A stretch of 64,000 bases of DNA from Escherichia phage vB_EcoS_ESCO40. The notes under the pieces are model-generated. The model made no database searches and was not told the DNA's origin. It saw nothing but the letters and a program-made list of their open reading frames with translations. Shown one piece after another: positions 5,242 to 63,615 of the stretch. Both the position numbers and the translations under genes were made by a program. Each line of letters opens with the position of its first letter. Position 1 is the stretch's first letter. The DNA is taken from the sequence record NC_106514.1. One strand, 5' to 3'.

Positions 5242-5774
5242 TTATTTAATTCCTCTAAAGTAGGTAAGGGTCTTGTATGATCAAAAGTTTCTATAACAGC
5301 GTTAGACCCATGTAGTTCTAAACGTAGTTCATTAGCTCTTTGAACTGCCAACTCTAAATCTAAATACCTAAAGTAGCCTCCGTGTACTGTAATACTTTCG
5401 GCGCTTCTGACCTGGACTCTCCATTGTTGTCGATCTTTTTTCCAGGTAACTCCTAAGTACCCCGAATTAGATTGAGCGATTTTGCTGCGATTATTCTCTT
5501 GGGACGTACAATCTTTTAAACTACACCATCTATTATCTTTTCTTATATTATTTAAGTGGTGTACTAGATTTGGAATATATCCCTCCATGTACAAAAAGGC
5601 TAATCTATGTGCTGCATATCTTTTTCTATTTATTCCAATAAATATATAACCATCCTTATCAGGACTACCCGCAATACTACCTGCTTTACCCCGCCCTCTA
5701 CTGACTTTCCTTATAAACTCGCCCGTTTCCGGGCGGTATTCAAATAATTCTTTTAATCTTTCTTGTGTTATCAT
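5238..5774 (-). CDS. HNH homing endonuclease with AP2-like DNA-binding domain
   Basis: HNH motif NLVHHLNNIRKDNR...; paralogous to the gene at 19718-20233 (shared N-terminus ...TQ..LK....Y.P.TGEF). Confidence 0.7.
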   Translation of the reverse strand: MITQERLKELFEYRPETGEFIRKVSRGRGKAGSIAGSPDKDGYIFIGINRKRYAAHRLAFLYMEGYIPNLVHHLNNIRKDNRWCSLKDCTSQENNRSKIAQSNSGYLGVTWKKDRQQWRVQVRSAESITVHGGYFRYLDLELAVQRANELRLELHGSNAVIETFDHTRPLPTLEELNK

Positions 5775-6556: not shown

Positions 6557-6586
6557 TTTGTTTCCTTCTCATCAATTTATAAAGTA

Positions 6587-6615
6587 ATTATACAGAAACT
6601 TAGGCATTTTAGCAA
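6587..6615 (-). promoter_or_regulatory. sigma70-type early promoter (T5 family)
   Basis: TTGCTA-17-TATAAT on minus strand. Confidence 0.6.
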
Positions 6616-6715
6616 ATAAAACTTTTAATTAAAATGCCTAGTCCTGTACCAATAGCAATACAAATGATTATACATATTGCTACTAATTGTATTACTCGTT
6701 TAATAATAGCCATGA

Positions 6716-18157: not shown

Positions 18158-18187
18158 TTGGTTTCCCTCTCATTAATTTATATAAAT

Positions 18188-18216
18188 ATTATAGCAAGAA
18201 ATAAGAGAGAAAGCAA
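18188..18216 (-). promoter_or_regulatory. sigma70-type early promoter (T5 family)
   Basis: TTGCTT-17-TATAAT. Confidence 0.6.
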
Positions 18217-19627: not shown

Positions 19628-19722
19628 TGGAGGTAGGTAAGGGGATCGAACCCTTACACCGTATCACTACGATCAACCGATTTCAAGTCGGAGTCCAGCG
19701 CCAGCCGTTGGATTGACCTACC
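19628..19722 (-). tRNA. class II tRNA, probable tRNA-Ser (anticodon UGA)
   Basis: Acceptor GGTAGGT/ACCTACC, loop CTTGAAA, long variable arm, T-arm AAGGG-TTCGATC-CCCTT; unusually long at 95 nt. Confidence 0.5.
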
Positions 19723-20233
19723 CTATAAACTCTTCATATACTGCAAATTCCCCGAATAACTCACGTCTAAGATTATTAGCTTTATTTACAGCTTTATCTA
19801 GTTCAGTAAAAAGTCCACCATAATGGAGCTTGCCATCTTTACGTACTTCTATTTTCCACTTATTTCTTTGCTTATGCCAAGTTACATTTTTATACCCAGA
19901 GGTATTATCTACCCTTAATTTAGCATTAGCTTGATTCTGTGATACAGTGGCTATTCGTAAGTTATCCCATTTAGTATTGGACTTATCTTGATCCTTGTGG
20001 TCAATTAGATCTGGTATTTTTCCAGTCATGTATAAGAATGCTAGACGATGTGCTAACCAGCTAGTATTTCCTAGAGTTATCTTCCAATAGCCTAGTTCAT
20101 TAATAAATCCCGCTCTAGTTCCAGCATATTTACTATTCCATTGACTATCTAAATCAGATCTATATTTCCAGAAAAACTCTCCAGTATCTGGTTTATATAA
20201 CAACACGGATTTTAATTCTTGTTGTGTTAGCAT
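19718..20233 (-). CDS. HNH homing endonuclease with AP2-like domain (freestanding, inside tRNA array)
   Basis: HNH motif DLIDHKDQDKSNTKWDNLR; track start 20395 would run through a tRNA gene, so start placed at ATG 20233. Confidence 0.7.
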   Translation of the reverse strand: MLTQQELKSVLLYKPDTGEFFWKYRSDLDSQWNSKYAGTRAGFINELGYWKITLGNTSWLAHRLAFLYMTGKIPDLIDHKDQDKSNTKWDNLRIATVSQNQANAKLRVDNTSGYKNVTWHKQRNKWKIEVRKDGKLHYGGLFTELDKAVNKANNLRRELFGEFAVYEEFIG

Positions 20234-20517: not shown

Positions 20518-20755
20518 AAATTCTTTAGTTTACTAAGGCTATTAGCTCGGCGTAACTACAGCACCTTCGCTTCGAGCGGAAGGAACCGCGTCATCTCGCA
20601 AACCCGATACACTATTCAGTTGCCGCTGAATCTAGTGGACTAATCTAGAACCTCTCCCAAATAGTAGGGATCGTGCTTTTTGGCAGCCAGTCCTAGGTCG
20701 AGCTAATACCTTAGTGAACTATGATGAGGATTTCTCCTCATCAATTTATATAAAT

Positions 20756-20784
20756 ATTATAACAAGAAATTAAGCATCAAGCAA
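20756..20784 (-). promoter_or_regulatory. sigma70-type promoter driving tRNA operon
   Basis: TTGCTT-17-TATAAT; no ORF downstream, only leader and tRNAs. Confidence 0.6.
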
Positions 20785-23623: not shown

Positions 23624-23653
23624 TCGTTAACTCCTTCATCAATTTATATAACT

Positions 23654-23683
23654 ATTATATCAGAAATTTAAAGTAAAAGGCAA
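23654..23683 (-). promoter_or_regulatory. sigma70-type early promoter (T5 family)
   Basis: TTGCCT-18-TATAAT. Confidence 0.5.
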
Positions 23684-23713
23684 GTACATTTTTAAAAATT
23701 CTGTTCGGAGGAG

Positions 23714-28456: not shown

Positions 28457-29253
28457 TTTAAGTATTTTTAAGAACTCTCGTAAAAACTCTTAAAAATACA
28501 GACGATACCGGGAGAGTCATAAGTCTCACTCATTAAGTATTTCAAGACAAAATACAGTAACGTCTATTATTTTCCAGTTTAAGTCAGGGTGACTTAGTGG
28601 TTATGTCCTGCGGTATATTGAGGACTCGGTTAGGCTTGGGGTCATGACTTCCCGCCTTTTGCTGCTACTCAACAGGAGTTATCGCGAATTACCTGTGCTA
28701 TTGTGCACCATTAGTGACATCTCTCATGTCAGCATTTCCCACTTTGTGGATAGCTTGAAAAACTACTCCGATATGGAGAAAGAACTTCACTATCCTAGAA
28801 TACCTTCTAAAGTTCTTCTTTAGCCTGGACATAGTTAAATCGTAATAAAACTATTCAGCAGACTGGTTGGTTAGTCTGGAACCAACTACCACGTGGTTTA
28901 GGCAGTGCGCAACTAACCTCGGAAGCTTTTACGTTAAAAGCATCAGTTATCCAGTTCTTACCGACCGTAGGATTCGAACCTACATCTTCCACCAGTTACG
29001 GCTTGATAATACCAATTATACTAGGACGGCGGTGTTACTACATAAGTGATTTCCACACCCCACTATTTATAAATTAGAGAAGAGTTTAGGGGAGAGGTTT
29101 CAGACGCCTCATTTTACACGTTCTAGCCACTAACCGGGATTGCCGCCCCCTGTGTACTAGTTTTACAACTAACCCACCGACTCTATTCAATGCGCTCCGG
29201 TTGGGATTCTGCACTCAGCGTAATCGGCTCGCTGTTCCCTAATTTATGAATAT
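28457..29253 (-). other. promoter-driven ORF-free region (candidate structured RNA(s) or degenerate tRNAs)
   Basis: About 0.8 kb without an ORF of 60 aa or more, downstream of promoter 29254-29282 and upstream of tRNA-Arg. Confidence 0.4.
28955..29030 (-). ncRNA. tRNA-like element with perfect T-arm but imperfect acceptor
   Basis: GTAGG-TTCGAAT-CCTAC T-arm; acceptor pairing needs a bulge; anticodon not assignable. Confidence 0.25.
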
Positions 29254-29282
29254 ATTATACAGAATTTATAAGCATTTAGCAA
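29254..29282 (-). promoter_or_regulatory. sigma70-type promoter (T5 family)
   Basis: TTGCTA-17-TATAAT. Confidence 0.6.
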
Positions 29283-29290
29283 ATAAATTT

Positions 29291-29734
29291 TTAATTAAAT
29301 TCGCCAGCAATCTGAGCAGCAGTACCACCATCATAACGCCCAGGAAATTCTTCCTTAATCGCTTTCATCAGCATACCTTTTGTAATTCCAGGGTTTAGCT
29401 TAACTAATTCTGCAAAGTATTTACGAATCTCAGTATCAGATAACTGAGGAGGCAGATACTCCTGCAACCACTTATTTAGAATGTATTCATACTGAGCGGA
29501 CTGCAAGCTATAACTATCAAGATCTTGACCATGAAGTTTAGCTTTCATCTGGTTAATGCTTTTTAGTTGAGCTTTGAGATAAGACACAAATTGTTCAGAA
29601 GTGATGAAATCTTTATCAATACGCTGAAGATCCCCGATTATGGTCTGATAGCTTTTAGCGACTTCTTTATCAGAACCATTAAACTTAGAATCCTGCAAAG
29701 CTCTACGCAAAACATCTAAAATATTCTCTTCCAT
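29291..29734 (-). CDS. GatB/YqeY-domain protein
   Basis: Segment EYLPPQLSDTEIRKYF...GMLMKAIKEEFPGRYDGG resembles the YqeY family as I recall it. Confidence 0.55.
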   Translation of the reverse strand: MEENILDVLRRALQDSKFNGSDKEVAKSYQTIIGDLQRIDKDFITSEQFVSYLKAQLKSINQMKAKLHGQDLDSYSLQSAQYEYILNKWLQEYLPPQLSDTEIRKYFAELVKLNPGITKGMLMKAIKEEFPGRYDGGTAAQIAGEFN

Positions 29735-33931: not shown

Positions 33932-33969
33932 TATTTATTTTCCTTTTTGTTTATCAATTTATGAAGTAT

Positions 33970-33998
33970 ATTATACGAGAATTTGAAGCGTTTAGCAA
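33970..33998 (-). promoter_or_regulatory. sigma70-type early promoter (T5 family)
   Basis: TTGCTA-17-TATAAT. Confidence 0.6.
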
Positions 33999-34014
33999 AT
34001 GAATTTTTTAAAAA

Positions 34015-44752: not shown

Positions 44753-45589
44753 ATGCGTAGATTAATTATTATTAGTGGTGCAGGTTTGAGTGTTGAAAGT
44801 GGTGTACGAGCCTTCCGTACTGATACTGCTAGTGGTAAAGCATTGTGGGATGATTATGATCTAGAAGAGGTGTGTAATATTCATGCCTTTCGTGGTAATT
44901 TTTACCATAAAACTCACGCATTTTACAATAAACGTCGTGAAGAGTTAGAAACTGTTGAACCTAATCTTGCACACTTGCGTATTGGTGAATGGTATAAACA
45001 ATACCCAGGTCAGGTAGTAAACTTGACTACCAACGTTGATGACCTTATTGAGCGTGCTGGTGTTCCGCATAGTGACATTCTGCACATTCACGGATACTTA
45101 AAAGAGGTTGTTGTAGCTGATAGCTACAATAGTAGCAATAAACGAATTATTGATGTTGGGTATAGCTCTATTGACCCAGATGATTATAAGTGGGTTAAAC
45201 CTAATGTAATCTTCTTCGGAGAACATGCTCCAGCATACGCGGAGATGTACAATGTTTTTGATGGTATTACCAGTCAAGATATGATTGTGGTGGTTGGTTG
45301 CTCTAACCAAGTAATTAACTTCTACTGGGAATTATTCCCTGTTCTTAATCGGACTGCTGCGAAACTTATGGTAGTTAACTACTACGATAGTGCCTTAGCG
45401 GCGGAACCAGGCTATCAAGGTATGACTCGTAGTGATATGTACCAACTGGAAGATCGTGATATTCCTTACTGGAGTAAAGGTGCGGTAGATGCTTTCAGTG
45501 ACCCTGGTTTTATCGCTCGTGTAGAAGCTCATCTAGAGGGTAGACCTTATATGCCGGAGAGAAGGGGAAACAGATATGTCCATAGTTAA
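44753..45589 (+). CDS. Sir2-like NAD-binding protein (no zinc ribbon)
   Basis: GAGLSVESGVRAFR and TTNVDDL...LHIHGY motifs; no CxxC zinc module seen. Confidence 0.65.
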   Translation: MRRLIIISGAGLSVESGVRAFRTDTASGKALWDDYDLEEVCNIHAFRGNFYHKTHAFYNKRREELETVEPNLAHLRIGEWYKQYPGQVVNLTTNVDDLIERAGVPHSDILHIHGYLKEVVVADSYNSSNKRIIDVGYSSIDPDDYKWVKPNVIFFGEHAPAYAEMYNVFDGITSQDMIVVVGCSNQVINFYWELFPVLNRTAAKLMVVNYYDSALAAEPGYQGMTRSDMYQLEDRDIPYWSKGAVDAFSDPGFIARVEAHLEGRPYMPERRGNRYVHS

Positions 45590-47304: not shown

Positions 47305-47344
47305 GTACTCAAAGACACTGATAGCACCATCCGGAAAATTTTAC

Positions 47345-47373
47345 TTGCATGATACTCAAAATCTTGATATAAT
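47345..47373 (+). promoter_or_regulatory. sigma70-type promoter
   Basis: TTGCAT-17-TATAAT. Confidence 0.55.
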
Positions 47374-47389
47374 ATTTATATTGAATTGA

Positions 47390-52448: not shown

Positions 52449-52745
52449 ATGACCAAAGCTGAAATTATCGCACAGTGTGAAAAATTTGGTGAGTTTTATC
52501 TTCATTACGAGAAACTTCGTCAGAAAGGAACCACGTACCTTCAGGGTACAATGGAATTTGATCCGGCCCAAGATAAATATCTGGCTGAGCGTATTAAACG
52601 TGAACGTATTCGTAAAGCGAAAGATGATGAAATCCTTGTCTTCTCTCGTACTAATGATAGCTTCCGTTTTATTCCTGTCGAGAAAGTTCGTCGTGTGACT
52701 AGCCTCCAATCAGAGTTAGATCGTGCTTCTCCAGTAGGCCGATAA
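52449..52745 (+). CDS. hypothetical protein (98 aa)
   Basis: ORF. Confidence 0.5.
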   Translation: MTKAEIIAQCEKFGEFYLHYEKLRQKGTTYLQGTMEFDPAQDKYLAERIKRERIRKAKDDEILVFSRTNDSFRFIPVEKVRRVTSLQSELDRASPVGR

Positions 52746-52755
52746 GAAAACAATT

Positions 52756-52778
52756 AGCCCCTATATGGGGCTTTTTGT
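52756..52778 (+). terminator. intrinsic terminator
   Basis: agcccc-tatat-ggggct plus T-run. Confidence 0.65.
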
Positions 52779-52795
52779 GTATTTGGGATATGTAA

Positions 52796-53104
52796 ATGAG
52801 CGAACAGGTAAATCAAAACTATGAAGGACACGTTGATGACCAGTCCATCATACTTTGGGAGAAGGAGGGGGAACAAGTAAGATTAACAGTATCTGAATTT
52901 CGTGGGAATCTATACATGGGTATTCGTTACTGGCTTCTTGATATTAATGATGAATGGTTTCCAACGAAATCTGGCTTCTCTTTTCCTTACACCCTAGAAA
53001 CAACATCACAGCTTTTCTATGCGTTTACACAGATTCTTAGTGAATCTGAGGTTTTACATGAAGTACAGAAACGAGCTGAAGAACTCAAAGCCAAGAATGC
53101 CTAG
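52796..53104 (+). CDS. hypothetical protein (102 aa)
   Basis: ORF. Confidence 0.5.
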   Translation: MSEQVNQNYEGHVDDQSIILWEKEGEQVRLTVSEFRGNLYMGIRYWLLDINDEWFPTKSGFSFPYTLETTSQLFYAFTQILSESEVLHEVQKRAEELKAKNA

Positions 53105-53117
53105 TTCTTGGCTTTTT
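53091..53117 (+). terminator. intrinsic terminator
   Basis: ccaagaa / ttcttgg stem plus T-run, overlapping the stop codon. Confidence 0.55.
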
Positions 53118-53131
53118 CTTTATAAATGTAT

Positions 53132-53160
53132 TTGCTTTCAACTCAGTTTTGTTATATAAT
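53132..53160 (+). promoter_or_regulatory. sigma70-type early promoter (T5 family)
   Basis: TTGCTT-17-TATAAT. Confidence 0.6.
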
Positions 53161-53189
53161 ATTTATATAAATTAATGAGAGGATCAATC

Positions 53190-53390
53190 ATGGCAATGAC
53201 AGTAACACTTCCCAAGATTCAAGCAAAACTTAATCTACTTTCCACAGCACGTATTAATTATCAAGATAGCATAGGCACAGTAAATCAAAAAGCGTACAAA
53301 GATGCGTTTCTGAAAGAATCTGCTGATTTGATGGATATGGTTACACAATATAATAAAGAACTCAAGATGGAAATCGCCGATGATGAATAA
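53190..53390 (+). CDS. hypothetical protein (about 66 aa)
   Basis: Track start 53175 is the ATG inside the conserved leader; RBS GAGAGGA precedes ATG at 53190. Confidence 0.45.
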   Translation: MAMTVTLPKIQAKLNLLSTARINYQDSIGTVNQKAYKDAFLKESADLMDMVTQYNKELKMEIADDE

Positions 53391-54354
53391 TGTAAAAGGC
53401 TTTATTAGGCGTTGTCAAGAAGCATATTATCAAGGCATGTCTTTAATCTCTGATGAGGAGTATGATTGCCTGGTAAAACGCTTCCCGTTAGAAGAAGAGA
53501 TCGGGCCTAAAGGTGATATTCCACATCTGTATCGTATGTATTCTTTACAGAAAGTTTATTATAATCGTGGAGATAAACCCCCATTTAACCCCTTAGGTCA
53601 GGTAGAAACTGATAAGTTAGATGGTTGTGCAATTTCTCTGTTATATATTAACGGCGAATTTGTCCAAGCATTAACCCGTGGTAATGGTATTCTAGGGAAT
53701 GATGTCACAAGCAACGTAAGATTGCTGAACATTCCTAAAAAGATTTCCCAAAAAGTACCTACTCAAATCACTGGTGAAGTTCTAATTACAAAAGAAGTAG
53801 AAAATAAACGTAACTTTGCCTCTGGTGCTATTAACCTCAAAGATAGTGATGATTTCGTACAACGCATTGGAGAAGGCGGTTTAATCTTTGTTGCTTACGG
53901 TATCCAATGTTCTGCTGAATCTGTAGGTATTACAGAAGCATACTTAAAAGATATGCTTTGGCTAGAGAATGAGAACTTCTTAACAGTTGTTAATGTGCGT
54001 TCCTTCTTTAAATGGATTCCGACGGACGGTAAAGTTGTTCGTATTAATGACAACAACAAATTCTTCCGTGAAGGCTGGACTAATAAATTCCCTCGTGGAG
54101 CATTCGCTATTAAAGAGGATGAAGAAGGCGAAATTACAACTCTTACTAAAGTTGAATGGCAGGTAGGGGCTTCTGGTAAAGTAACTCCAGTTGGTTATTT
54201 CGAACCGGTAATTATTGATGATGCTACAATTGTTAAGGCGACTCTTAATAACGTTGATTATATTAACTCTCTCGATCTAGAGATCGGTTGCCAGATTCGA
54301 GTGATTCGTGCTGGTGGTGTAATCCCGTGCATAGTAGAGCGAGTATACGATTAA
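53380..54354 (+). CDS. ligA: NAD-dependent DNA ligase, N-terminal part (adenylation domain)
   Basis: KxDG adenylation motif (ETDKLDGCA). Confidence 0.7.
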   Translation: MMNNVKGFIRRCQEAYYQGMSLISDEEYDCLVKRFPLEEEIGPKGDIPHLYRMYSLQKVYYNRGDKPPFNPLGQVETDKLDGCAISLLYINGEFVQALTRGNGILGNDVTSNVRLLNIPKKISQKVPTQITGEVLITKEVENKRNFASGAINLKDSDDFVQRIGEGGLIFVAYGIQCSAESVGITEAYLKDMLWLENENFLTVVNVRSFFKWIPTDGKVVRINDNNKFFREGWTNKFPRGAFAIKEDEEGEITTLTKVEWQVGASGKVTPVGYFEPVIIDDATIVKATLNNVDYINSLDLEIGCQIRVIRAGGVIPCIVERVYD

Positions 54355-54497
54355 TACATAACCCTTTGCTACCCATCTACCATATCGGAATTATAAAGTG
54401 GTTATTGACATTTTCGCCGCTTAGGTATATACTATTATCATTCAGTTGAGGGATAGAAAGTTATGGCGAGGGTAAGCAAAGTTAGTTAAAATTGTAG

Positions 54498-54526
54498 TTG
54501 CTAAATGCTTAAATACTTGCTATAAT
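54498..54526 (+). promoter_or_regulatory. sigma70-type promoter between the two ligase ORFs
   Basis: TTGCTA-17-TATAAT with TG at extended -10. Confidence 0.55.
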
Positions 54527-54556
54527 ATTTATATAAATTGATAAGGAAGAAATTTG

Positions 54557-55336
54557 ATGAAAATCGAAATTCCAACACAATGTCCCTCTTGTGGTTCTAA
54601 GCTAGATCTTGTCAACGGACAATTATTCTGTCGTAATAAGTCCAACTGTCCAGCGCAATCAAGTAAGTTAATTGAGAACTTCTGTACAAAAATGAAGTTA
54701 AAGGGCTTTGGCCCGAAAACTATTGAGAAGCTGGAGCTGACGAAGATTTCAGAACTATTTTACCTAACCGAAGAAGATTTGGTTAGAGCCGTGGGTAGCA
54801 AGGTTGCCGCTAAGTTAATTAGCGAATTAAATACTAAAGTTCGCGGAGACATTGACTTTGGTTCAGTTCTCGGTTCTTTAGGAATCCCTCTAATTGGAGA
54901 GGTTGCAGCAAAGAAATTGTCCCAAAATTGCACCAGTTTTCAAGATGTGAGAGCTGATGGCAAAGCTGGAGAAAATTATAAAGCCTGGCTAAATTCCCCA
55001 CAAGGCAAGGATGTTATCGAATTACCGTGGAAATTCACAACTGGTATTAAAGGTGCTAAAGCTGGGGTCATCATTACTGATGGTCTAGTAGCCCAGCCAA
55101 ATGGAATCACGGTGTGTATTACCGGGTCTTTGCAAGATTTTGCAAATAGAACGGATGCAACAAATTATTTAGAAGGTCTAGGGTATACTGTTAAAAAATC
55201 AGTTACCAAAGACGTTAAATACCTAATCTGTGAGGATGAATCGAAGCGTTCTTCCTCATCTTATAAGAAAGCCGAAACGAATGGGATAGAAATCCTGTCG
55301 ATTAAAGAACTATTGGAGAAAAATAATAATGTCTAA
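54557..55336 (+). CDS. ligA: NAD-dependent DNA ligase, C-terminal part (Zn finger, HhH, BRCT-like)
   Basis: CPSCGSKLDLVNGQLFCRNKSNCPAQ zinc finger; RBS AAGGAAG before ATG at 54557. Confidence 0.65.
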   Translation: MKIEIPTQCPSCGSKLDLVNGQLFCRNKSNCPAQSSKLIENFCTKMKLKGFGPKTIEKLELTKISELFYLTEEDLVRAVGSKVAAKLISELNTKVRGDIDFGSVLGSLGIPLIGEVAAKKLSQNCTSFQDVRADGKAGENYKAWLNSPQGKDVIELPWKFTTGIKGAKAGVIITDGLVAQPNGITVCITGSLQDFANRTDATNYLEGLGYTVKKSVTKDVKYLICEDESKRSSSSYKKAETNGIEILSIKELLEKNNNV

Positions 55337-56096
55337 ACTGAACTGGAACGTAGAAGGTGTAACCGAGTCTCTGAAAGCAAAAGCCACTGCTCTGGGTGTT
55401 GATGTAATCTCTCAAGAACAAGTAGCTACTATCGCTGCTGAACTGGCCGCTGAAACTGGCAAAGACGTTACCGCTCGCTCTGTTGGCTCTAAGCTGCGTA
55501 AAGAAGGTTTCGAAGTACAGAAAGCTAACGAAGTACAGAAATCTCCGTGGACTCCTGAGCAGGAAGCTGAACTGGTTGATTTCCTGAACGCTCATGCTGG
55601 TCAGTATACTTATGCTGAAATCGCTGCTGCTGTAGCTGGTGGTCAATTTGGTGCTAAGCAGGTACAGGGTAAGATCCTGAGTCTGGAAATGACCGCTTCT
55701 GTTAAACCAACTGAAAAAGCTGCTGCTGTTCGTTCCTTCACTCCGGATGAAGAAACTGACTTTGTTAATCAGGTTGTTGCTGGTGCTACTATTGAAGCTA
55801 TCGCTGCTCACTTCGGTCGTAATATCAAGCAGATCCGTGGTAAAGCTCTGAGTCTGCTGCGTGAAGGTCGTATCGCTGCTATGCCGGTACAGGAAACTTC
55901 AAGTGCTAAAACCCGTGAAGATCTGTTAGAAGGTCTGGATCTGGCTAATATGACCGTTGCTGAGATCGCTGAGAAAACTGGTAAGTCTGAGCGCGGTGTT
56001 AAATCTATGCTGTCTCGTCGTGGTCTGGTTGCTAAGGACTATGATGGTGCCGCTAAGCGTGCTAAACTGGATGCAAAAGCTGCGGCTGCTGAATAA
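55329..56096 (+). CDS. abundant repeat-containing DNA-binding-like protein (255 aa)
   Basis: Four helix-hairpin-like repeats (eg TVAEIAEKTGKSERGVKSMLSRRGL); strong cgt/ctg/ggt/gct codon bias. Confidence 0.5.
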   Translation: MSKLNWNVEGVTESLKAKATALGVDVISQEQVATIAAELAAETGKDVTARSVGSKLRKEGFEVQKANEVQKSPWTPEQEAELVDFLNAHAGQYTYAEIAAAVAGGQFGAKQVQGKILSLEMTASVKPTEKAAAVRSFTPDEETDFVNQVVAGATIEAIAAHFGRNIKQIRGKALSLLREGRIAAMPVQETSSAKTREDLLEGLDLANMTVAEIAEKTGKSERGVKSMLSRRGLVAKDYDGAAKRAKLDAKAAAAE

Positions 56097-56113
56097 TCTG
56101 GTAAATTAAACCT

Positions 56114-56146
56114 AAGGGGAGGGGGCTATGCTCCTTCCCCTTTTTG
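56114..56146 (+). terminator. intrinsic terminator
   Basis: G-rich / C-rich stem plus TTTTT. Confidence 0.55.
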
Positions 56147-56178
56147 CATTTAGAAGGCACGAAAGCGTGCAAAGGAGA

Positions 56179-57651
56179 ATGACCTTGTTTAACGTGCAAG
56201 CTGTAGTGTTGAAGATGCTTCTAGCTTCAGAACAGAAGCAAATAGCATTGGAAACATTCTCAAAACTGCATAAAGATCATTTTAATGACGCTTTCTCCTC
56301 AATTTACCAAGCCGTCCAGAATTATTATAAAAAATATAACACAATGCCGTCCATTGACGCACTGATGCTTGAGGCTAATAGGAACGCCCGCCTTTCTCAA
56401 GCTCTAGTCGTTTTAGCTAACACTCAAATTCCAGAAGTTAGCATGGAACAGGCACTTGAAGTCTTAGAGGCCGAGTATACACAGGATTTATTCCTGAAGC
56501 TTCTAGAAACAGACGTGCTTCAAGATTTAACAATGCTGGATCAGGGAGAAATTCTTAACCGAGTTGCCTCCCTTCACTTAAAATTAGAAGAGAAAGTAAC
56601 GAATACTGGAAAAGTATTCAACGCAGATAACATGCGTATTTTCCAGAGAGAAGAAGATACCAAACTGAACTTAATCGCTCTTGGTATTTGTAATGAGTTC
56701 GATGCTCAAATTGGTTTAGCTCGCACAGAAACGTTACTGCTTGGTGGTTGGCGTGGTACTGGTAAATCCATTATCTGTTCAAACATACAGGTTCAGCAAT
56801 ATTTGAATGGAGATATTGCTCCATACTTCTCAATTGAGATGAAAGAACATGAAGTATTTAGACGTAATCTAGCCATGTTAGCTGGTGTATCAGCACTAGC
56901 AATGCGTAATAATACTCTAGAAGGTGCAGCTCTGTTGAGATTAGCCAGAACTAGAGCTAGGATGTTTAATGGTGGTGAGGAGCTTTTCGATAACTTCGTT
57001 AAACAGTACACAATGGCTAAGATGAGTGATTTCTACGATATGGAAAGTAAGCTAATAGAAGGATATGAGCTACATACTCCTATGATTATTGTTTATGATC
57101 CTGAGCTGTCTATTACAACAGTTGACGTAGAATTAAATAAATTAGTTGCTAGATATGGGGATAAAGTTACAGTAGCTTTACTGGACTATATTAACCAAAC
57201 CCGACTTCCAGACTCTAAAACCATTGATATGTATGACTGGAAAGAACAGATGGTTGTTAGCTCGTCTTTCAAATCTATCTGCCAGAAACATAACGTGGCT
57301 GGTGTAGCCCCTTACCAGATTGATCAAGATGGTAGAACACGTATGTCAAAGGGGATTCTTGATTCCGCAGACATGGCTGCTAATCTTAATGCTGCTAAAG
57401 CTGATAATGGTCAAGGTGCTATTATGTTTGACTTCGTTAAGACCCGTTCTTCTGATAGCGTGAAGTTTATGCCTAAAATGAACTGGGAAACCCTGCGAAT
57501 GGATAACACTACCAACCTAGCAATGGAAGATATATCTCAAATGGAAGCTGAGTTCGTTATCCCTATTGAGAAGGATAAGCCAGCTCAATCTAAACGTGCT
57601 AAGAAAGACAAAGCTGAAAATTCAACAGGTGAACAGGCCAGCGATATATGA
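56179..57651 (+). CDS. P-loop ATPase (RecA/DnaB-fold helicase candidate)
   Basis: Walker A GGWRGTGKS; track start 56128 lies inside the terminator hairpin so start moved to about 56179 (uncertain, could be TTG 56185). Confidence 0.5.
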   Translation: MTLFNVQAVVLKMLLASEQKQIALETFSKLHKDHFNDAFSSIYQAVQNYYKKYNTMPSIDALMLEANRNARLSQALVVLANTQIPEVSMEQALEVLEAEYTQDLFLKLLETDVLQDLTMLDQGEILNRVASLHLKLEEKVTNTGKVFNADNMRIFQREEDTKLNLIALGICNEFDAQIGLARTETLLLGGWRGTGKSIICSNIQVQQYLNGDIAPYFSIEMKEHEVFRRNLAMLAGVSALAMRNNTLEGAALLRLARTRARMFNGGEELFDNFVKQYTMAKMSDFYDMESKLIEGYELHTPMIIVYDPELSITTVDVELNKLVARYGDKVTVALLDYINQTRLPDSKTIDMYDWKEQMVVSSSFKSICQKHNVAGVAPYQIDQDGRTRMSKGILDSADMAANLNAAKADNGQGAIMFDFVKTRSSDSVKFMPKMNWETLRMDNTTNLAMEDISQMEAEFVIPIEKDKPAQSKRAKKDKAENSTGEQASDI

Positions 57652-63395: not shown

Positions 63396-63479
63396 ATGAT
63401 GTATAATATATACATAAATTTGAGAGAGAAAGTTTCGGATTGATAAGAAAGTCCGAAGCAGAAAAATAAAAATTTTAGT

Positions 63480-63509
63480 TGCTAAATTCTCTCGAAATCT
63501 AGTATAATA
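63480..63509 (+). promoter_or_regulatory. sigma70-type early promoter (T5 family)
   Basis: TTGCTA-18-TATAAT with conserved leader; a near-duplicate -10/leader copy lies at about 63406-63430. Confidence 0.55.
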
Positions 63510-63615
63510 TATACATAAATTCGAGGAGAAAACAAAAATTAAATTCTTCGATTATGAAAAGCTATACTTACTAGCTAGAGGAAATTCTGACCTAATTATT
63601 AAGCTATTCAAAAGA

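What the first reader, a model, noticed from the sequence alone, without database searches (positions are those of the whole stretch)
53380..55336. NAD-dependent DNA ligase encoded as two ORFs separated by about 200 bp with an internal promoter
The adenylation domain (KxDG) ends at 54354 and the Zn-finger/HhH/BRCT-like part starts at 54557 behind its own TTGCTA-17-TATAAT promoter and RBS. This could be a genuine two-subunit ligase, or the scar of a lost intron, intein or homing-endonuclease insertion.
Basis: partly seen in the sequence, partly recalled or inferred. Interest (0 to 1): 0.45.

Follow-up and report, generated by a model that had tools for sequence, protein, structure and literature searches.

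The report
Phage T5 two-piece DNA ligase
This is the well-known two-gene (ligA/ligB) NAD-dependent DNA ligase of T5-like phages, cut cleanly at a domain boundary by a 202-bp spacer carrying two strong early promoters; it is real but already annotated, published, and solved as a structure in a relative.

Summary
The window is a T5-like phage (Tequintavirus, 98% identical to Salmonella phages S130 and oldekolle).

- **The two genes.** ORF 53380-54354 encodes domain Ia, the adenylation domain (K79-L-D-G) and the OB fold. ORF 54557-55336 encodes the 4-Cys Zn finger, HhH and BRCT domains.
- **The spacer.** The 202-bp spacer holds two sigma-70 promoters, not one. In T5 these are annotated P-K28b and P-K28a.
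- **Not an error.** Hundreds of independent phage genomes carry the same split. [quoted passage not shown]
- **Solved relative.** PDB entries 9HU3 and 9I5I hold both chains of the Providencia phage PR1 homologue.
- **Clean cut.** The joined halves align colinearly with E. coli LigA across the junction. No domain is missing, and there is no intein or intron.

New details from this work:

- Single-chain relatives of 555-586 aa exist on metagenomic contigs in the same T5 gene order.
- The tandem-promoter module sits at a fixed distance from ligB in all nine genera checked.
- Its 161-bp core is invariant, and it lies in the longest perfect run in 33 kb compared with a phage 85.6% identical overall.
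- Two unrelated homing endonuclease genes sit at the identical spot after ligA in two Klebsiella phages.

Verdict: real, ordinary, already known.

The parts
53087..53115 (+). Terminator-like hairpin ending the upstream transcription unit
   Evidence: 12-bp stem, 5-nt loop, T-run.
53131..53159 (+). Early-type promoter (TTGCTT-17-TATAAT followed by ATTTATATAAATT) ahead of the 71-aa ORF and ligA. It has the same -10 and downstream core as the promoter in front of ligB.
   Evidence: Sequence read. Local blastn match of the P-K28a core at 53155-53179. T5 annotates a promoter upstream of ligA. Not detected by the consensus scan because its -35 scores 3/6.
53175..53390 (+). 71-aa hypothetical ORF whose end overlaps the ligA start. 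It is context, not part of the ligase.
   Evidence: Annotated as a hypothetical protein in phage oldekolle. T5 annotates no ORF between T5.115 and ligA.
53380..54354 (+). [quoted passage not shown] The alternative start 53383 is the one annotated in T5.
   Evidence: 9hu3_A, 8.8e-104; T5 ligA.
54355..54556 (+). 202-bp non-coding spacer between the two ligase genes. It sits within the OB-to-Zn-finger linker of single-chain ligases.
   Evidence: It is 100% identical in T5.
54405..54433 (+). Promoter P-K28b equivalent (TTGACA-17-TATACT)
   Evidence: 11/12. T5 annotation 'promoter P-K 28b'. Present 145-155 nt upstream of the ligB start in all genera checked.
54498..54526 (+). Promoter P-K28a equivalent (TTGCTA-17-TATAAT, extended -10 TG)
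   Evidence: T5 annotation 'promoter P-K 28a'. Member of a repeated early-promoter family in the window.
54543..54549 (+). Ribosome-binding site AAGGAAG, 7 nt before the ligB ATG
   Evidence: Sequence read. Relatives annotate an RBS here.
54557..55336 (+). ligB: NAD-dependent DNA ligase subunit B (4-Cys Zn finger, HhH region, BRCT)
   Evidence: 9hu3_B, 1.1e-79; colinear with E. coli LigA 402-666; T5 ligB.
55329..56096 (+). D5 DNA-binding protein gene. Its start overlaps the ligB stop (ATGTCTAA), so ligB is the first gene of the promoter-driven ligB-D5 unit.
54385..54633 (.). 249-bp stretch perfectly identical to phage bobsandoy (85.6% identical overall). It is the longest perfect run in 33.3 kb of aligned sequence and covers both promoters, the leader and the first 77 nt of ligB.

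Best explanation
This is the T5-type split NAD+-dependent DNA ligase. It is made as two separate polypeptides.

- **LigA (324 aa).** It carries the NAD+-specific domain Ia, the adenylyltransferase domain with the active-site lysine K79, and the OB fold.
- **LigB (259 aa).** It carries the Zn finger, the HhH DNA-binding region and BRCT.
- **The cut.** It lies in the flexible linker between OB and Zn finger.

Inferred mechanism: LigA self-adenylates with NAD+. The two subunits then assemble non-covalently, probably as a clamp around nicked DNA as single-chain LigA does, to seal nicks during phage replication.

The 202-bp spacer is not a scar of degraded coding sequence. It is a functional tandem-promoter module (T5 P-K28b and P-K28a) that starts a new early transcription unit, ligB-D5 and probably the helicase, primase and polymerase genes beyond. 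No terminator was found after ligA, so ligB can also be read from upstream transcripts.

The arrangement is found in all nine Demerecviridae genera checked, so it is old. It derives from a single-chain gene that still exists, in the same gene order, in uncultured T5-like phages.
For: Shown directly:
- Identity and annotation. The window is 98% identical to Tequintavirus genomes, and T5 annotates ligA, ligB and promoters P-K28b/a at the homologous positions.
- Published. [quoted passage not shown] 2005, Virology 332:45 (PMC1684257). The subunits are also listed in PMC3632103.
- Full domain complement split over the two ORFs.
- The concatenated halves align as one colinear stretch with E. coli LigA 284-666 across the junction.
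- The junction is always ...IVERVYD|MKIEIPTxCPxCG. Fused relatives have only 3-20 more linker residues.
- PDB 9HU3/9I5I hold chain A 'DNA ligase (NAD(+))' (339 aa, E 8.8e-104) and chain B 'DNA ligase subunit B' (248 aa, E 1.1e-79). Chain B is 100% identical to Providencia phage PR1/PSTCR5.
- All 120 best homologues of LigA are 240-337 aa; 119 of them are 307-337 aa and one is a 240-aa partial sequence.
- Tandem promoters lie 145-155 nt and 57-60 nt upstream of the ligB start in nine genera. The upstream one was detected in every phage checked and the downstream one in seven of thirteen; in the rest only its -10 TATAAT is visible. This holds whatever the gap length, 189-1374 bp.
- The spacer core 54396-54556 is 100% identical in phages whose ligA third codon positions are only 68-89% identical. 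Variable-site fractions are ligA 0.35, core 0.02, ligB 0.18.
- Fused 555-586-aa relatives sit in T5 synteny: lig, then a D5 homologue (37% identity, 1e-50), DnaB helicase and primase.

Background: a LigN fragment of Ia+NTase+OB adenylates itself normally (PMC1684257).
Against: - No biochemical data exist for this phage's own proteins.
- I could not find the paper behind 9HU3/9I5I. That the two chains form a complex there is inferred from their being deposited together.
- Promoter activity rests on the T5 annotation and my recollection of the Bujard-lab T5 promoter work. No transcription-start data were examined.
- Whether LigA alone has residual nick-sealing activity is not known.
Confidence: 0.9

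Rival explanations
1. Origin by homing endonuclease. A free-standing homing endonuclease gene, with its downstream expression signals, inserted into the OB/Zn linker of a single-chain ligase gene and split it. The endonuclease was later lost in T5-like phages, leaving the stop codon, spacer, promoters and new start. This concerns origin and is compatible with the best explanation.
For: - Two unrelated HEGs lie immediately after the ligA stop, at the identical position, in Sugarlandvirus phages vB_Kpn24-P3 and AmPh_EK80. One is 232 aa with a T5orf172 domain and Zn finger (phrog_681, 3e-45). The other is a 219-aa GIY-YIG protein (PF01541, 1.4e-5).
- They share no nucleotide similarity. Substitutions cluster in the last ~30 nt of ligA in the HEG-carrying genomes.
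- Other cargo ORFs occupy the same slot in Vibrio, Proteus and Epseptimavirus phages.
- Fused syntenic relatives exist.
- Precedent: Aeh1 nrdA split by mobE (PMC3045599, PMC2988022).
Against: - HEGs prefer intergenic spots next to conserved genes. Their presence may therefore be a consequence of the gap, not its cause.
- HEGs are sporadic (seen in 2 genomes), whereas the promoter module is universal.
- No HEG remnant is detectable in the 202-bp spacer (stops in all frames).
- The phylogeny does not resolve the order of events.
Confidence: 0.3
2. Origin by selection for a promoter. The split arose because a strong tandem-promoter module was inserted, or evolved, inside the ligase gene. Its role was to raise and time expression of the downstream D5 and replication genes. 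The ligase tolerated being cut at an inter-domain linker.
For: - The module keeps a fixed distance to ligB in all genera.
- It is the most conserved stretch of the region.
- ligB is coupled to D5 by overlapping stop and start.
- Fused relatives have D5 directly after the ligase with no such module.
Against: This is purely comparative. There are no expression data. It does not explain why the promoter could not sit upstream of the whole ligase gene.
Confidence: 0.3
3. The split is a sequencing or assembly error, or a recent pseudogenisation of a single-chain gene.
For: None, beyond the bare fact of two ORFs.
Against: - The same architecture occurs in 441 close records and in 930 records with a ligB homologue.
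- The halves are in different frames, 202 bp apart, with stops in all frames.
- Each half has its own start and RBS.
- Both halves are under purifying selection: ligA and ligB are 80-98% identical at the nucleotide level to the Markadamsvirinae relatives compared, more than at third codon positions (59-95%), and LigA homologues stay full-length down to 46% protein identity.
Confidence: 0.01
4. The halves are rejoined. This could be by RNA splicing (group I or II intron), by protein trans-splicing (split intein), or by translational bypass as in T4 gene 60.
For: Phage genes for DNA metabolism often host introns and inteins. Split-intein 'fractured genes' with an endonuclease between the halves are known (PMC2677866).
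Against: - There is no Rfam match in 52500-56500 apart from an irrelevant sub-threshold sRNA hit.
- The spacer is only 202 bp and consists of two promoters.
- LigA ends exactly at the OB fold and LigB starts exactly at the Zn finger, so there are no intein-sized extensions.
- A GAT landing codon before ligB would be out of frame (sequence read).
- The PDB chains start and end at the ORF termini.
Confidence: 0.02
5. LigA is a self-sufficient minimal ligase. LigB has an independent role, for example a BRCT/HhH DNA-binding accessory of the replisome, rather than being a ligase subunit.
For: Minimal ligases without extra DNA-binding domains exist (for example Lig E, PMC6144786, listed). The two genes are in different transcription units, and ligA evolves about twice as fast as ligB.
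Against: - The two genes are adjacent in every Demerecviridae genome examined, and they are fused in relatives.
- They are deposited together as ligase and 'ligase subunit B' in the PDB.
- From established knowledge of E. coli and Tfi LigA deletion studies, nick sealing by NAD+ ligases needs the Zn and HhH domains.
Confidence: 0.05

Closest known systems
Bacteriophage T5 LigA/LigB (T5.116/T5.117, AAS77162/AAS77163; Wang et al. 2005, Virology 332:45)
   Same: Same genes, same order (ligA, P-K28b, P-K28a, ligB, D5, D6). The region is 96.8% identical overall and the 202-bp spacer is 100% identical.
   Different: Only strain-level differences. This window has an extra 71-aa ORF just upstream of ligA that T5 does not annotate.
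Providencia phage vB_PreS_PR1 / PSTCR5 ligase, PDB 9HU3 and 9I5I (chains A and B)
   Same: Homologous two-chain enzyme, cut at the same linker position (...IVEKVED | MKIQIPTHCPICGS). Phmmer matches to this window's LigA and LigB have E-values of 8.8e-104 and 1.1e-79. It has the same tandem promoters upstream of ligB.
   Different: A different genus (Priunavirus). PR1 annotates a terminator after ligA that this window lacks.
Single-chain bacterial LigA (E. coli, PDB 2OWO; Thermus filiformis, 1DGS/1V9P)
   Same: Same domain order Ia-NTase-OB-Zn-HhH-BRCT, the KxDG lysine and four Zn cysteines. The alignment is colinear through the junction.
   Different: The bacterial enzyme is one 671-aa polypeptide. 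The phage enzyme is two chains totalling 583 aa, with shorter loops and about 6 fewer linker residues.
Compact single-chain ligases of uncultured T5-like phages (P0152, P0159, P0173, P0189 and others; 555-586 aa)
   Same: 39-46% identical to LigA. Their C-terminal halves match LigB (E down to 3.6e-43). They have the same flanking genes: a PC4/T5_A2-like gene upstream, and D5, DnaB and primase downstream.
   Different: They have one ORF with a continuous 15-35-residue linker where the T5 group has stop, promoters and start.
Aeromonas phage Aeh1 nrdA-a / mobE / nrdA-b 'genes in pieces' (PMC3045599; review PMC2988022)
   Same: An essential DNA-metabolism enzyme of a lytic phage is cut into two separately translated pieces that reassemble non-covalently. 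A free-standing homing endonuclease gene occupies the cut, as seen here in Sugarlandvirus relatives.
   Different: In this window no endonuclease is present. The gap is a conserved promoter module, and the split is family-wide rather than lineage-specific.
'Fractured genes' with split inteins (PMC2677866)
   Same: A host gene in two ORFs, with mobile-element cargo possible between them.
   Different: No intein halves are present here. The products are not spliced.

Membership tests
NAD+-dependent DNA ligase (LigA family) | Nucleotidyltransferase domain with the active-site KxDG motif | tested here: met
   PF01653, 2.3e-23, 83.5 bits against a cut-off of 27. K79-L-D-G aligns with E. coli K115.
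NAD+-dependent DNA ligase (LigA family) | N-terminal domain Ia that confers NAD+ specificity (conserved Y/D/Y/D residues) | tested here: inconclusive
   Residues 3-43 align weakly with Tfi LigA 11-52, with the pattern ...AYYQ...ISDEEYD.... The stretch scores below significance on its own. It is strongly conserved with 9hu3_A.
NAD+-dependent DNA ligase (LigA family) | OB-fold domain after the NTase domain | tested here: met
   PF03120, 3.8e-22, 78.4 bits against a cut-off of 32.9.
NAD+-dependent DNA ligase (LigA family) | Four-cysteine Zn finger, HhH region and BRCT domain | tested here: met
   C9, C12, C25 and C31 of LigB align with the E. coli Zn finger. The alignment is colinear to 2OWO residues 402-666. 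BRCT scores 35.1 bits against a cut-off of 21.3. HhH Pfam hits are below cut-off (25.0 against 27).
NAD+-dependent DNA ligase (LigA family) | All domains on one polypeptide | tested here: not met
   Two ORFs in different frames, 202 bp apart. This is the defining difference of the T5-type split form.
T5-type split ligase LigA/LigB (Demerecviridae) | Cut in the OB-Zn linker, with each half having its own start and RBS | tested here: met
   The junction ...IVERVYD|MKIEIPTQCPSCG is shared with PR1, Sugarlandvirus, Vibrio and Pectobacterium phages.
T5-type split ligase LigA/LigB (Demerecviridae) | Gene order ligA, ligB, D5, D6 helicase, with tandem early promoters before ligB | tested here: met
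T5-type split ligase LigA/LigB (Demerecviridae) | The two products form an active heteromeric ligase | not testable with these tools
   This is inferred only, from the co-deposited chains in 9HU3/9I5I. No assay or paper was available.
Intein-split ('fractured') gene | N- and C-intein fragments at the broken ends | tested here: not met
   There are no extra residues. The ends abut the OB fold and Zn finger.
Intron-interrupted gene (group I/II) | A structured self-splicing RNA between the exons | tested here: not met
   No Rfam intron hit at E of 1 or below in 52500-56500. The 202-bp spacer is made up of two promoters.
Homing-endonuclease 'genes in pieces' (Aeh1 nrdA/mobE type) | A free-standing endonuclease gene between the two halves | tested here: not met
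   None is present in this window. The feature is met in two Sugarlandvirus relatives.

The most novel reading that the evidence does not exclude
The invariant ~160-bp module between ligA and ligB is more than two promoters. One possibility is a transcription-activated replication origin, analogous to the tandem-promoter primary origin of T7 (my recollection, not tested). Another is an operator or leader-RNA control element for the D5 replication operon. On this reading, its insertion into the ligase linker created the split.

Three observations suggest this:
- It lies in the longest perfectly conserved run in 33 kb.
- It sits at a fixed distance from ligB in all genera.
- It contains inverted repeats around the second -35, and its leader RNA folds unusually well (z = -4.5).
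Probability: 0.12. Interest if true: 0.55.

Novelty: already known. Interest (0 to 1): 0.15.

Why it matters
The split ligase itself adds nothing new. It has been annotated in T5 since 2004-2005, it is carried by hundreds of sequenced Demerecviridae, and a homologous pair is in the PDB.

Its wider value is as a clean natural example of an enzyme cut at a domain linker that still works. This relates to protein engineering and to 'genes in pieces' evolution.

The comparative details found here could make the origin of the split experimentally testable:
- fused syntenic relatives;
- a universally placed, invariant promoter module;
- recurrent homing-endonuclease insertion at the same nucleotide.

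These are incremental findings.

Tried and rejected
- **Rfam scan of 52500-56500.** It found only a sub-threshold Streptococcus sRNA match at 52733-52776 (28.7 bits against 50), treated as chance. No intron or riboswitch was found.
- **Consensus RNA structure of the P-K28b leader across 10 phages.** Zero pairs were predicted. The strong fold of this window's leader (z = -4.5) is therefore not supported by comparative data. Individual relatives fold with z from -0.4 to -3.5.
- **8-codon mini-ORF at 54464-54490.** Its ATG is not kept in Sugarlandvirus, so it was rejected as a leader peptide.
- **NJ phylogeny with 100 bootstraps.** Fused and split forms interleave, but no fused-split sister pair has more than 39% support, and the whole phage clade has only 55%. 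The number and direction of split or fusion events cannot be called.
- **Literature searches for the 9HU3/9I5I paper or any 'split/heterodimeric ligase' study.** Nothing relevant turned up. Searches for the T5 P28 promoter papers also found nothing.
- **Translational bypass.** Rejected on frame and distance.
- **Sequencing error.** Rejected on the comparative data.
- **Small cargo ORFs** in bastian (64 aa) and the Proteus phage (55 aa). No Pfam or PHROG match.
- **Structure prediction.** Not run, because the PDB sequence matches were already decisive.
Full report
**What is there**

The window is a T5-like phage. The 1957-bp region is 98.2% identical to Salmonella phages S130 and S131, 98.1% to oldekolle (Tequintavirus), and 96.8% to T5 itself.

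The ORF listing gives ORF 53380-54354 (324 aa) and ORF 54554/54557-55336 (259 aa from the ATG). They lie in different frames. The spacer between them is 202 bp, 31% GC, and closed in all three frames.

Pfam assigns the NAD-ligase adenylation domain and OB fold to the first ORF. It assigns BRCT plus weak HhH hits to the second. The active-site lysine is K79 in KLDG. The second protein opens with the four-cysteine Zn finger.

The one omission is that the spacer carries two sigma-70-type promoters, not one:
- TTGACA-17-TATACT at 54405-54433;
- TTGCTA-17-TATAAT at 54498-54526, followed by the RBS AAGGAAG at 54543-54549.

**It is already known**

[quoted passage not shown] 2005 (PMC1684257). [quoted passage not shown]

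The Protein Data Bank holds two entries, 9HU3 and 9I5I. Each contains a 339-aa 'DNA ligase (NAD(+))' chain and a 248-aa 'DNA ligase subunit B' chain. They match the two ORFs at E = 8.8e-104 and 1.1e-79. Chain B is 100% identical to the ligB of Providencia phages PR1 and PSTCR5. I could not find the associated paper.

(a) *Are residues missing at the junction?* No.
- The concatenated halves align with E. coli LigA (2OWO) as one colinear stretch, residues 284-666, straight through the junction. E. coli has about six extra linker residues.
- In six Demerecviridae the junction is always ...IVERVYD | MKIEIPTxCPxCG. This is the linker between the OB fold and the Zn finger.

(b) *Is there an intact version in related phages?* Yes, though not among cultured phages.
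- All 120 best homologues of LigA in the 5.8-billion-protein collection are subunit-sized. They range from 240 to 337 aa; 119 of them are 307-337 aa, and one is a 240-aa partial sequence.
- An exhaustive HMMER scan of cluster representatives also found compact single-chain proteins of 555-586 aa, 39-46% identical.
- Their C-terminal halves match LigB, with E down to 3.6e-43.
- Four of them were traced to metagenomic contigs. Each sits in T5 gene order, with PC4-like or T5_A2-like genes upstream. Downstream lie a D5 homologue (37% identity, E = 1e-50, overlapping the ligase stop), a DnaB-type helicase (30% identity, E = 8e-72), a primase and PolA.
- In these proteins 3-20 additional linker residues stand where the T5 group has stop, spacer and start.

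(c) *Is it a sequencing error?* That is excluded by 441 close records and 930 records with a ligB homologue.

**What the spacer is**

It is not decayed coding sequence. It is the best-conserved DNA in the neighbourhood.
- Its 161-bp core (54396-54556) is 100% identical in T5, Spc35, Eps7, IrmaTschudi and bobsandoy. In those same phages, ligA third codon positions are only 68-89% identical.
- Against bobsandoy (85.6% identity over 33.3 kb aligned), the longest perfect run anywhere is 54385-54633, 249 bp.
- Among the Markadamsvirinae genomes compared (bastian excluded), the fraction of variable sites is 0.35 in ligA, 0.02 in the core and 0.18 in ligB.
- Across nine genera (Tequinta-, Epseptima-, Sugarland-, Hongcheon-, Novosib-, Priuna-, Thalassa- and Jesfedecavirus, plus another Vibrio group), a near-consensus promoter lies 145-155 nt upstream of the ligB start.
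- A second promoter lies 57-60 nt upstream of it. My threshold detected this second one in seven of the thirteen phages. In the others only its -10 TATAAT is visible.
- This spacing holds whether the ligA-ligB interval is 189 bp or 1374 bp.
- The downstream promoter belongs to a repeated early-promoter family (TATAAT-ATTTATATAAATT) with about ten other copies in the window. One of them lies ahead of ligA at 53131-53159.
- The ligB stop overlaps the D5 start (ATGTCTAA). The module therefore heads a ligB-D5 unit.
- No terminator-like site follows ligA.

**The interval is a cargo slot**

Extra genes, when present, always sit directly after the ligA stop. They leave the promoter module intact.
- Epseptimavirus bastian has a 64-aa ORF.
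- A Proteus phage has a 55-aa ORF.
- Vibrio phages have two or three ORFs, including a DprA-like protein (phrog_768, 1.9e-48).
- Two Sugarlandvirus phages carry homing-endonuclease genes. One is a 232-aa Zn-finger/T5orf172 protein (phrog_681, 3e-45). The other is a 219-aa GIY-YIG protein.
- These two endonuclease genes share no nucleotide similarity, yet they are inserted at the same nucleotide position. The last ~30 nt of ligA carry clustered substitutions in the endonuclease-bearing genomes. This is the pattern expected of independent homing events at a favoured target.

**How it most likely works**

*Shown:* there are two separately initiated ORFs with a full and colinear LigA domain set. 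The arrangement is conserved family-wide. Homologous chains are deposited together in the PDB.

*Inferred from established knowledge of LigA:*
- LigA (Ia-NTase-OB) reacts with NAD+ to form the lysyl-AMP intermediate. A comparable fragment of Haloferax LigN adenylates itself normally (PMC1684257).
- LigB supplies the Zn/HhH DNA-binding surface and BRCT.
- The two associate non-covalently to encircle and seal nicks.

The promoter module gives ligB, D5 and the downstream replication genes their own strong early transcription.

**Origin**

Single-chain is ancestral for the family as a whole, and fused syntenic relatives persist. Whether the cut was made by a homing endonuclease that was later lost, or by acquisition of the promoter module itself, cannot be decided.

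A neighbour-joining tree places split and compact fused forms together, apart from long bacterial LigA (55% bootstrap). It does not resolve their internal order. Fused-split pairs have 12-39% support, and monophyly of all split forms has 0%.

Intron, intein and translational-bypass explanations fail on direct tests.

**Loose ends**
- The leader RNA from the first promoter (54440-54570) folds at -29.4 kcal/mol, z = -4.5. No consensus structure emerges across genera.
- Several genera have inverted repeats around the -35 of the second promoter, but not in a common register.
- The extreme invariance of the module therefore exceeds what two hexamer pairs need and remains unexplained. A regulatory operator, an RNA element or an origin function are possibilities I could not test.

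**Verdict**

This is a real feature, correctly read by the first stage, and already known as T5 ligA/ligB. Interest is low. The small new points are comparative: fused syntenic relatives, the fixed-position invariant promoter module, and recurrent endonuclease insertion.

Noticed in passing
window 54385-54633: This 249-bp run (both promoters, the leader and the first 77 nt of ligB) is perfectly identical to phage bobsandoy. It is the longest perfect run in 33.3 kb aligned at 85.6% identity. Conservation exceeds what promoter hexamers alone require.
   Followed up: partly
window 56052-56222: The second-longest perfect run (171 bp) against bobsandoy covers the D5-D6 helicase intergenic region and the start of the helicase ORF. 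It is probably another conserved regulatory module.
   Followed up: no
window 55250-55321: A 72-nt stretch at the 3' end of ligB is invariant in the Markadamsvirinae genomes compared. It lies just before the overlapping D5 start (ATGTCTAA at 55329-55336). It may carry D5 translation or expression signals embedded in ligB.
   Followed up: no
window 53380-55336: ligA evolves about twice as fast as ligB (variable-site fraction 0.35 against 0.18). The change is abrupt at about 54396. The spacer is therefore also a boundary between two evolutionary or mosaic modules.
   Followed up: partly
window 54440-54570: The predicted leader RNA from the first promoter forms a long imperfect hairpin (-29.4 kcal/mol, z = -4.5, 0 of 200 shuffles as stable) using G-U pairs. 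One arm is the -10 region of the second promoter. No consensus structure appears across genera.
   Followed up: partly
L005:2036-2166, L007:2560-2690, L003:4348-4478 (upstream of ligB in relatives): Inverted repeats of 8-12 bp flank or overlap the -35 and spacer of the second promoter in Sugarland-, Novosib- and Thalassavirus. Their sequences differ (for example CTTAGCAAGT/ACTTGCTAAG and AATTTAGCAGTT/AACTGCTAAATT). This could be an operator or a hairpin, but the register is not uniform.
   Followed up: partly
L009:1517-2215 and L010:1559-2218: Two unrelated homing-endonuclease genes (T5orf172/Zn-finger type and GIY-YIG type) are inserted at the identical position right after the ligA stop in two Klebsiella Sugarlandvirus phages. 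Substitutions cluster in the last ~30 nt of ligA.
   Followed up: yes
L003:3749-4309, L004:2923-3483, L008:1887-2459; L007:703-1335: A DprA-like gene (phrog_768) lies between ligA and ligB in Vibrio Demerecviridae. In a Proteus phage, a gene annotated as DprA lies immediately upstream of ligA. This suggests a recurrent association of the gene with the ligase.
   Followed up: no
window 20730-20784(-), 18169-18198(-), 29241-29304(-), 23632-23695(-), 47335-47389(+), 63469-63521(+), 6561-6632(-), 33951-34007(-), 53155-53179(+): These are other copies of the P-K28a-type early promoter core (TATAAT-ATTTATATAAATT...) scattered through the window. They form a repeated promoter family.
   Followed up: partly
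window 44753-45562 (+): A Sir2-like gene, 51% identical to the bobsandoy 'putative Sir2-like protein'. Bobsandoy also encodes an NMN adenylyltransferase and a PnuC-like nicotinamide riboside transporter (L024:42431-44165), neither of which was found in this window. NAD+ metabolism genes sit alongside an NAD+-dependent ligase.
   Followed up: partly
window 5283-5774 (-) and 19721-20233 (-): Two ORFs are similar (54% and 34% identity) to a bobsandoy 'homing endonuclease'. Free-standing endonuclease genes are therefore present elsewhere in this genome.
   Followed up: no
window 52733-52776 (+): A sub-threshold Rfam match to the Streptococcus sRNA SpF51 (28.7 bits against a gathering score of 50, E = 0.025). 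It is most likely chance or a small hairpin.
   Followed up: no
window 53175-53390 (+): A 71-aa ORF overlaps the ligA start. It is annotated in oldekolle and bobsandoy, but T5 annotates no ORF at this position. It is a small variable gene at the 5' side of ligA.
   Followed up: no
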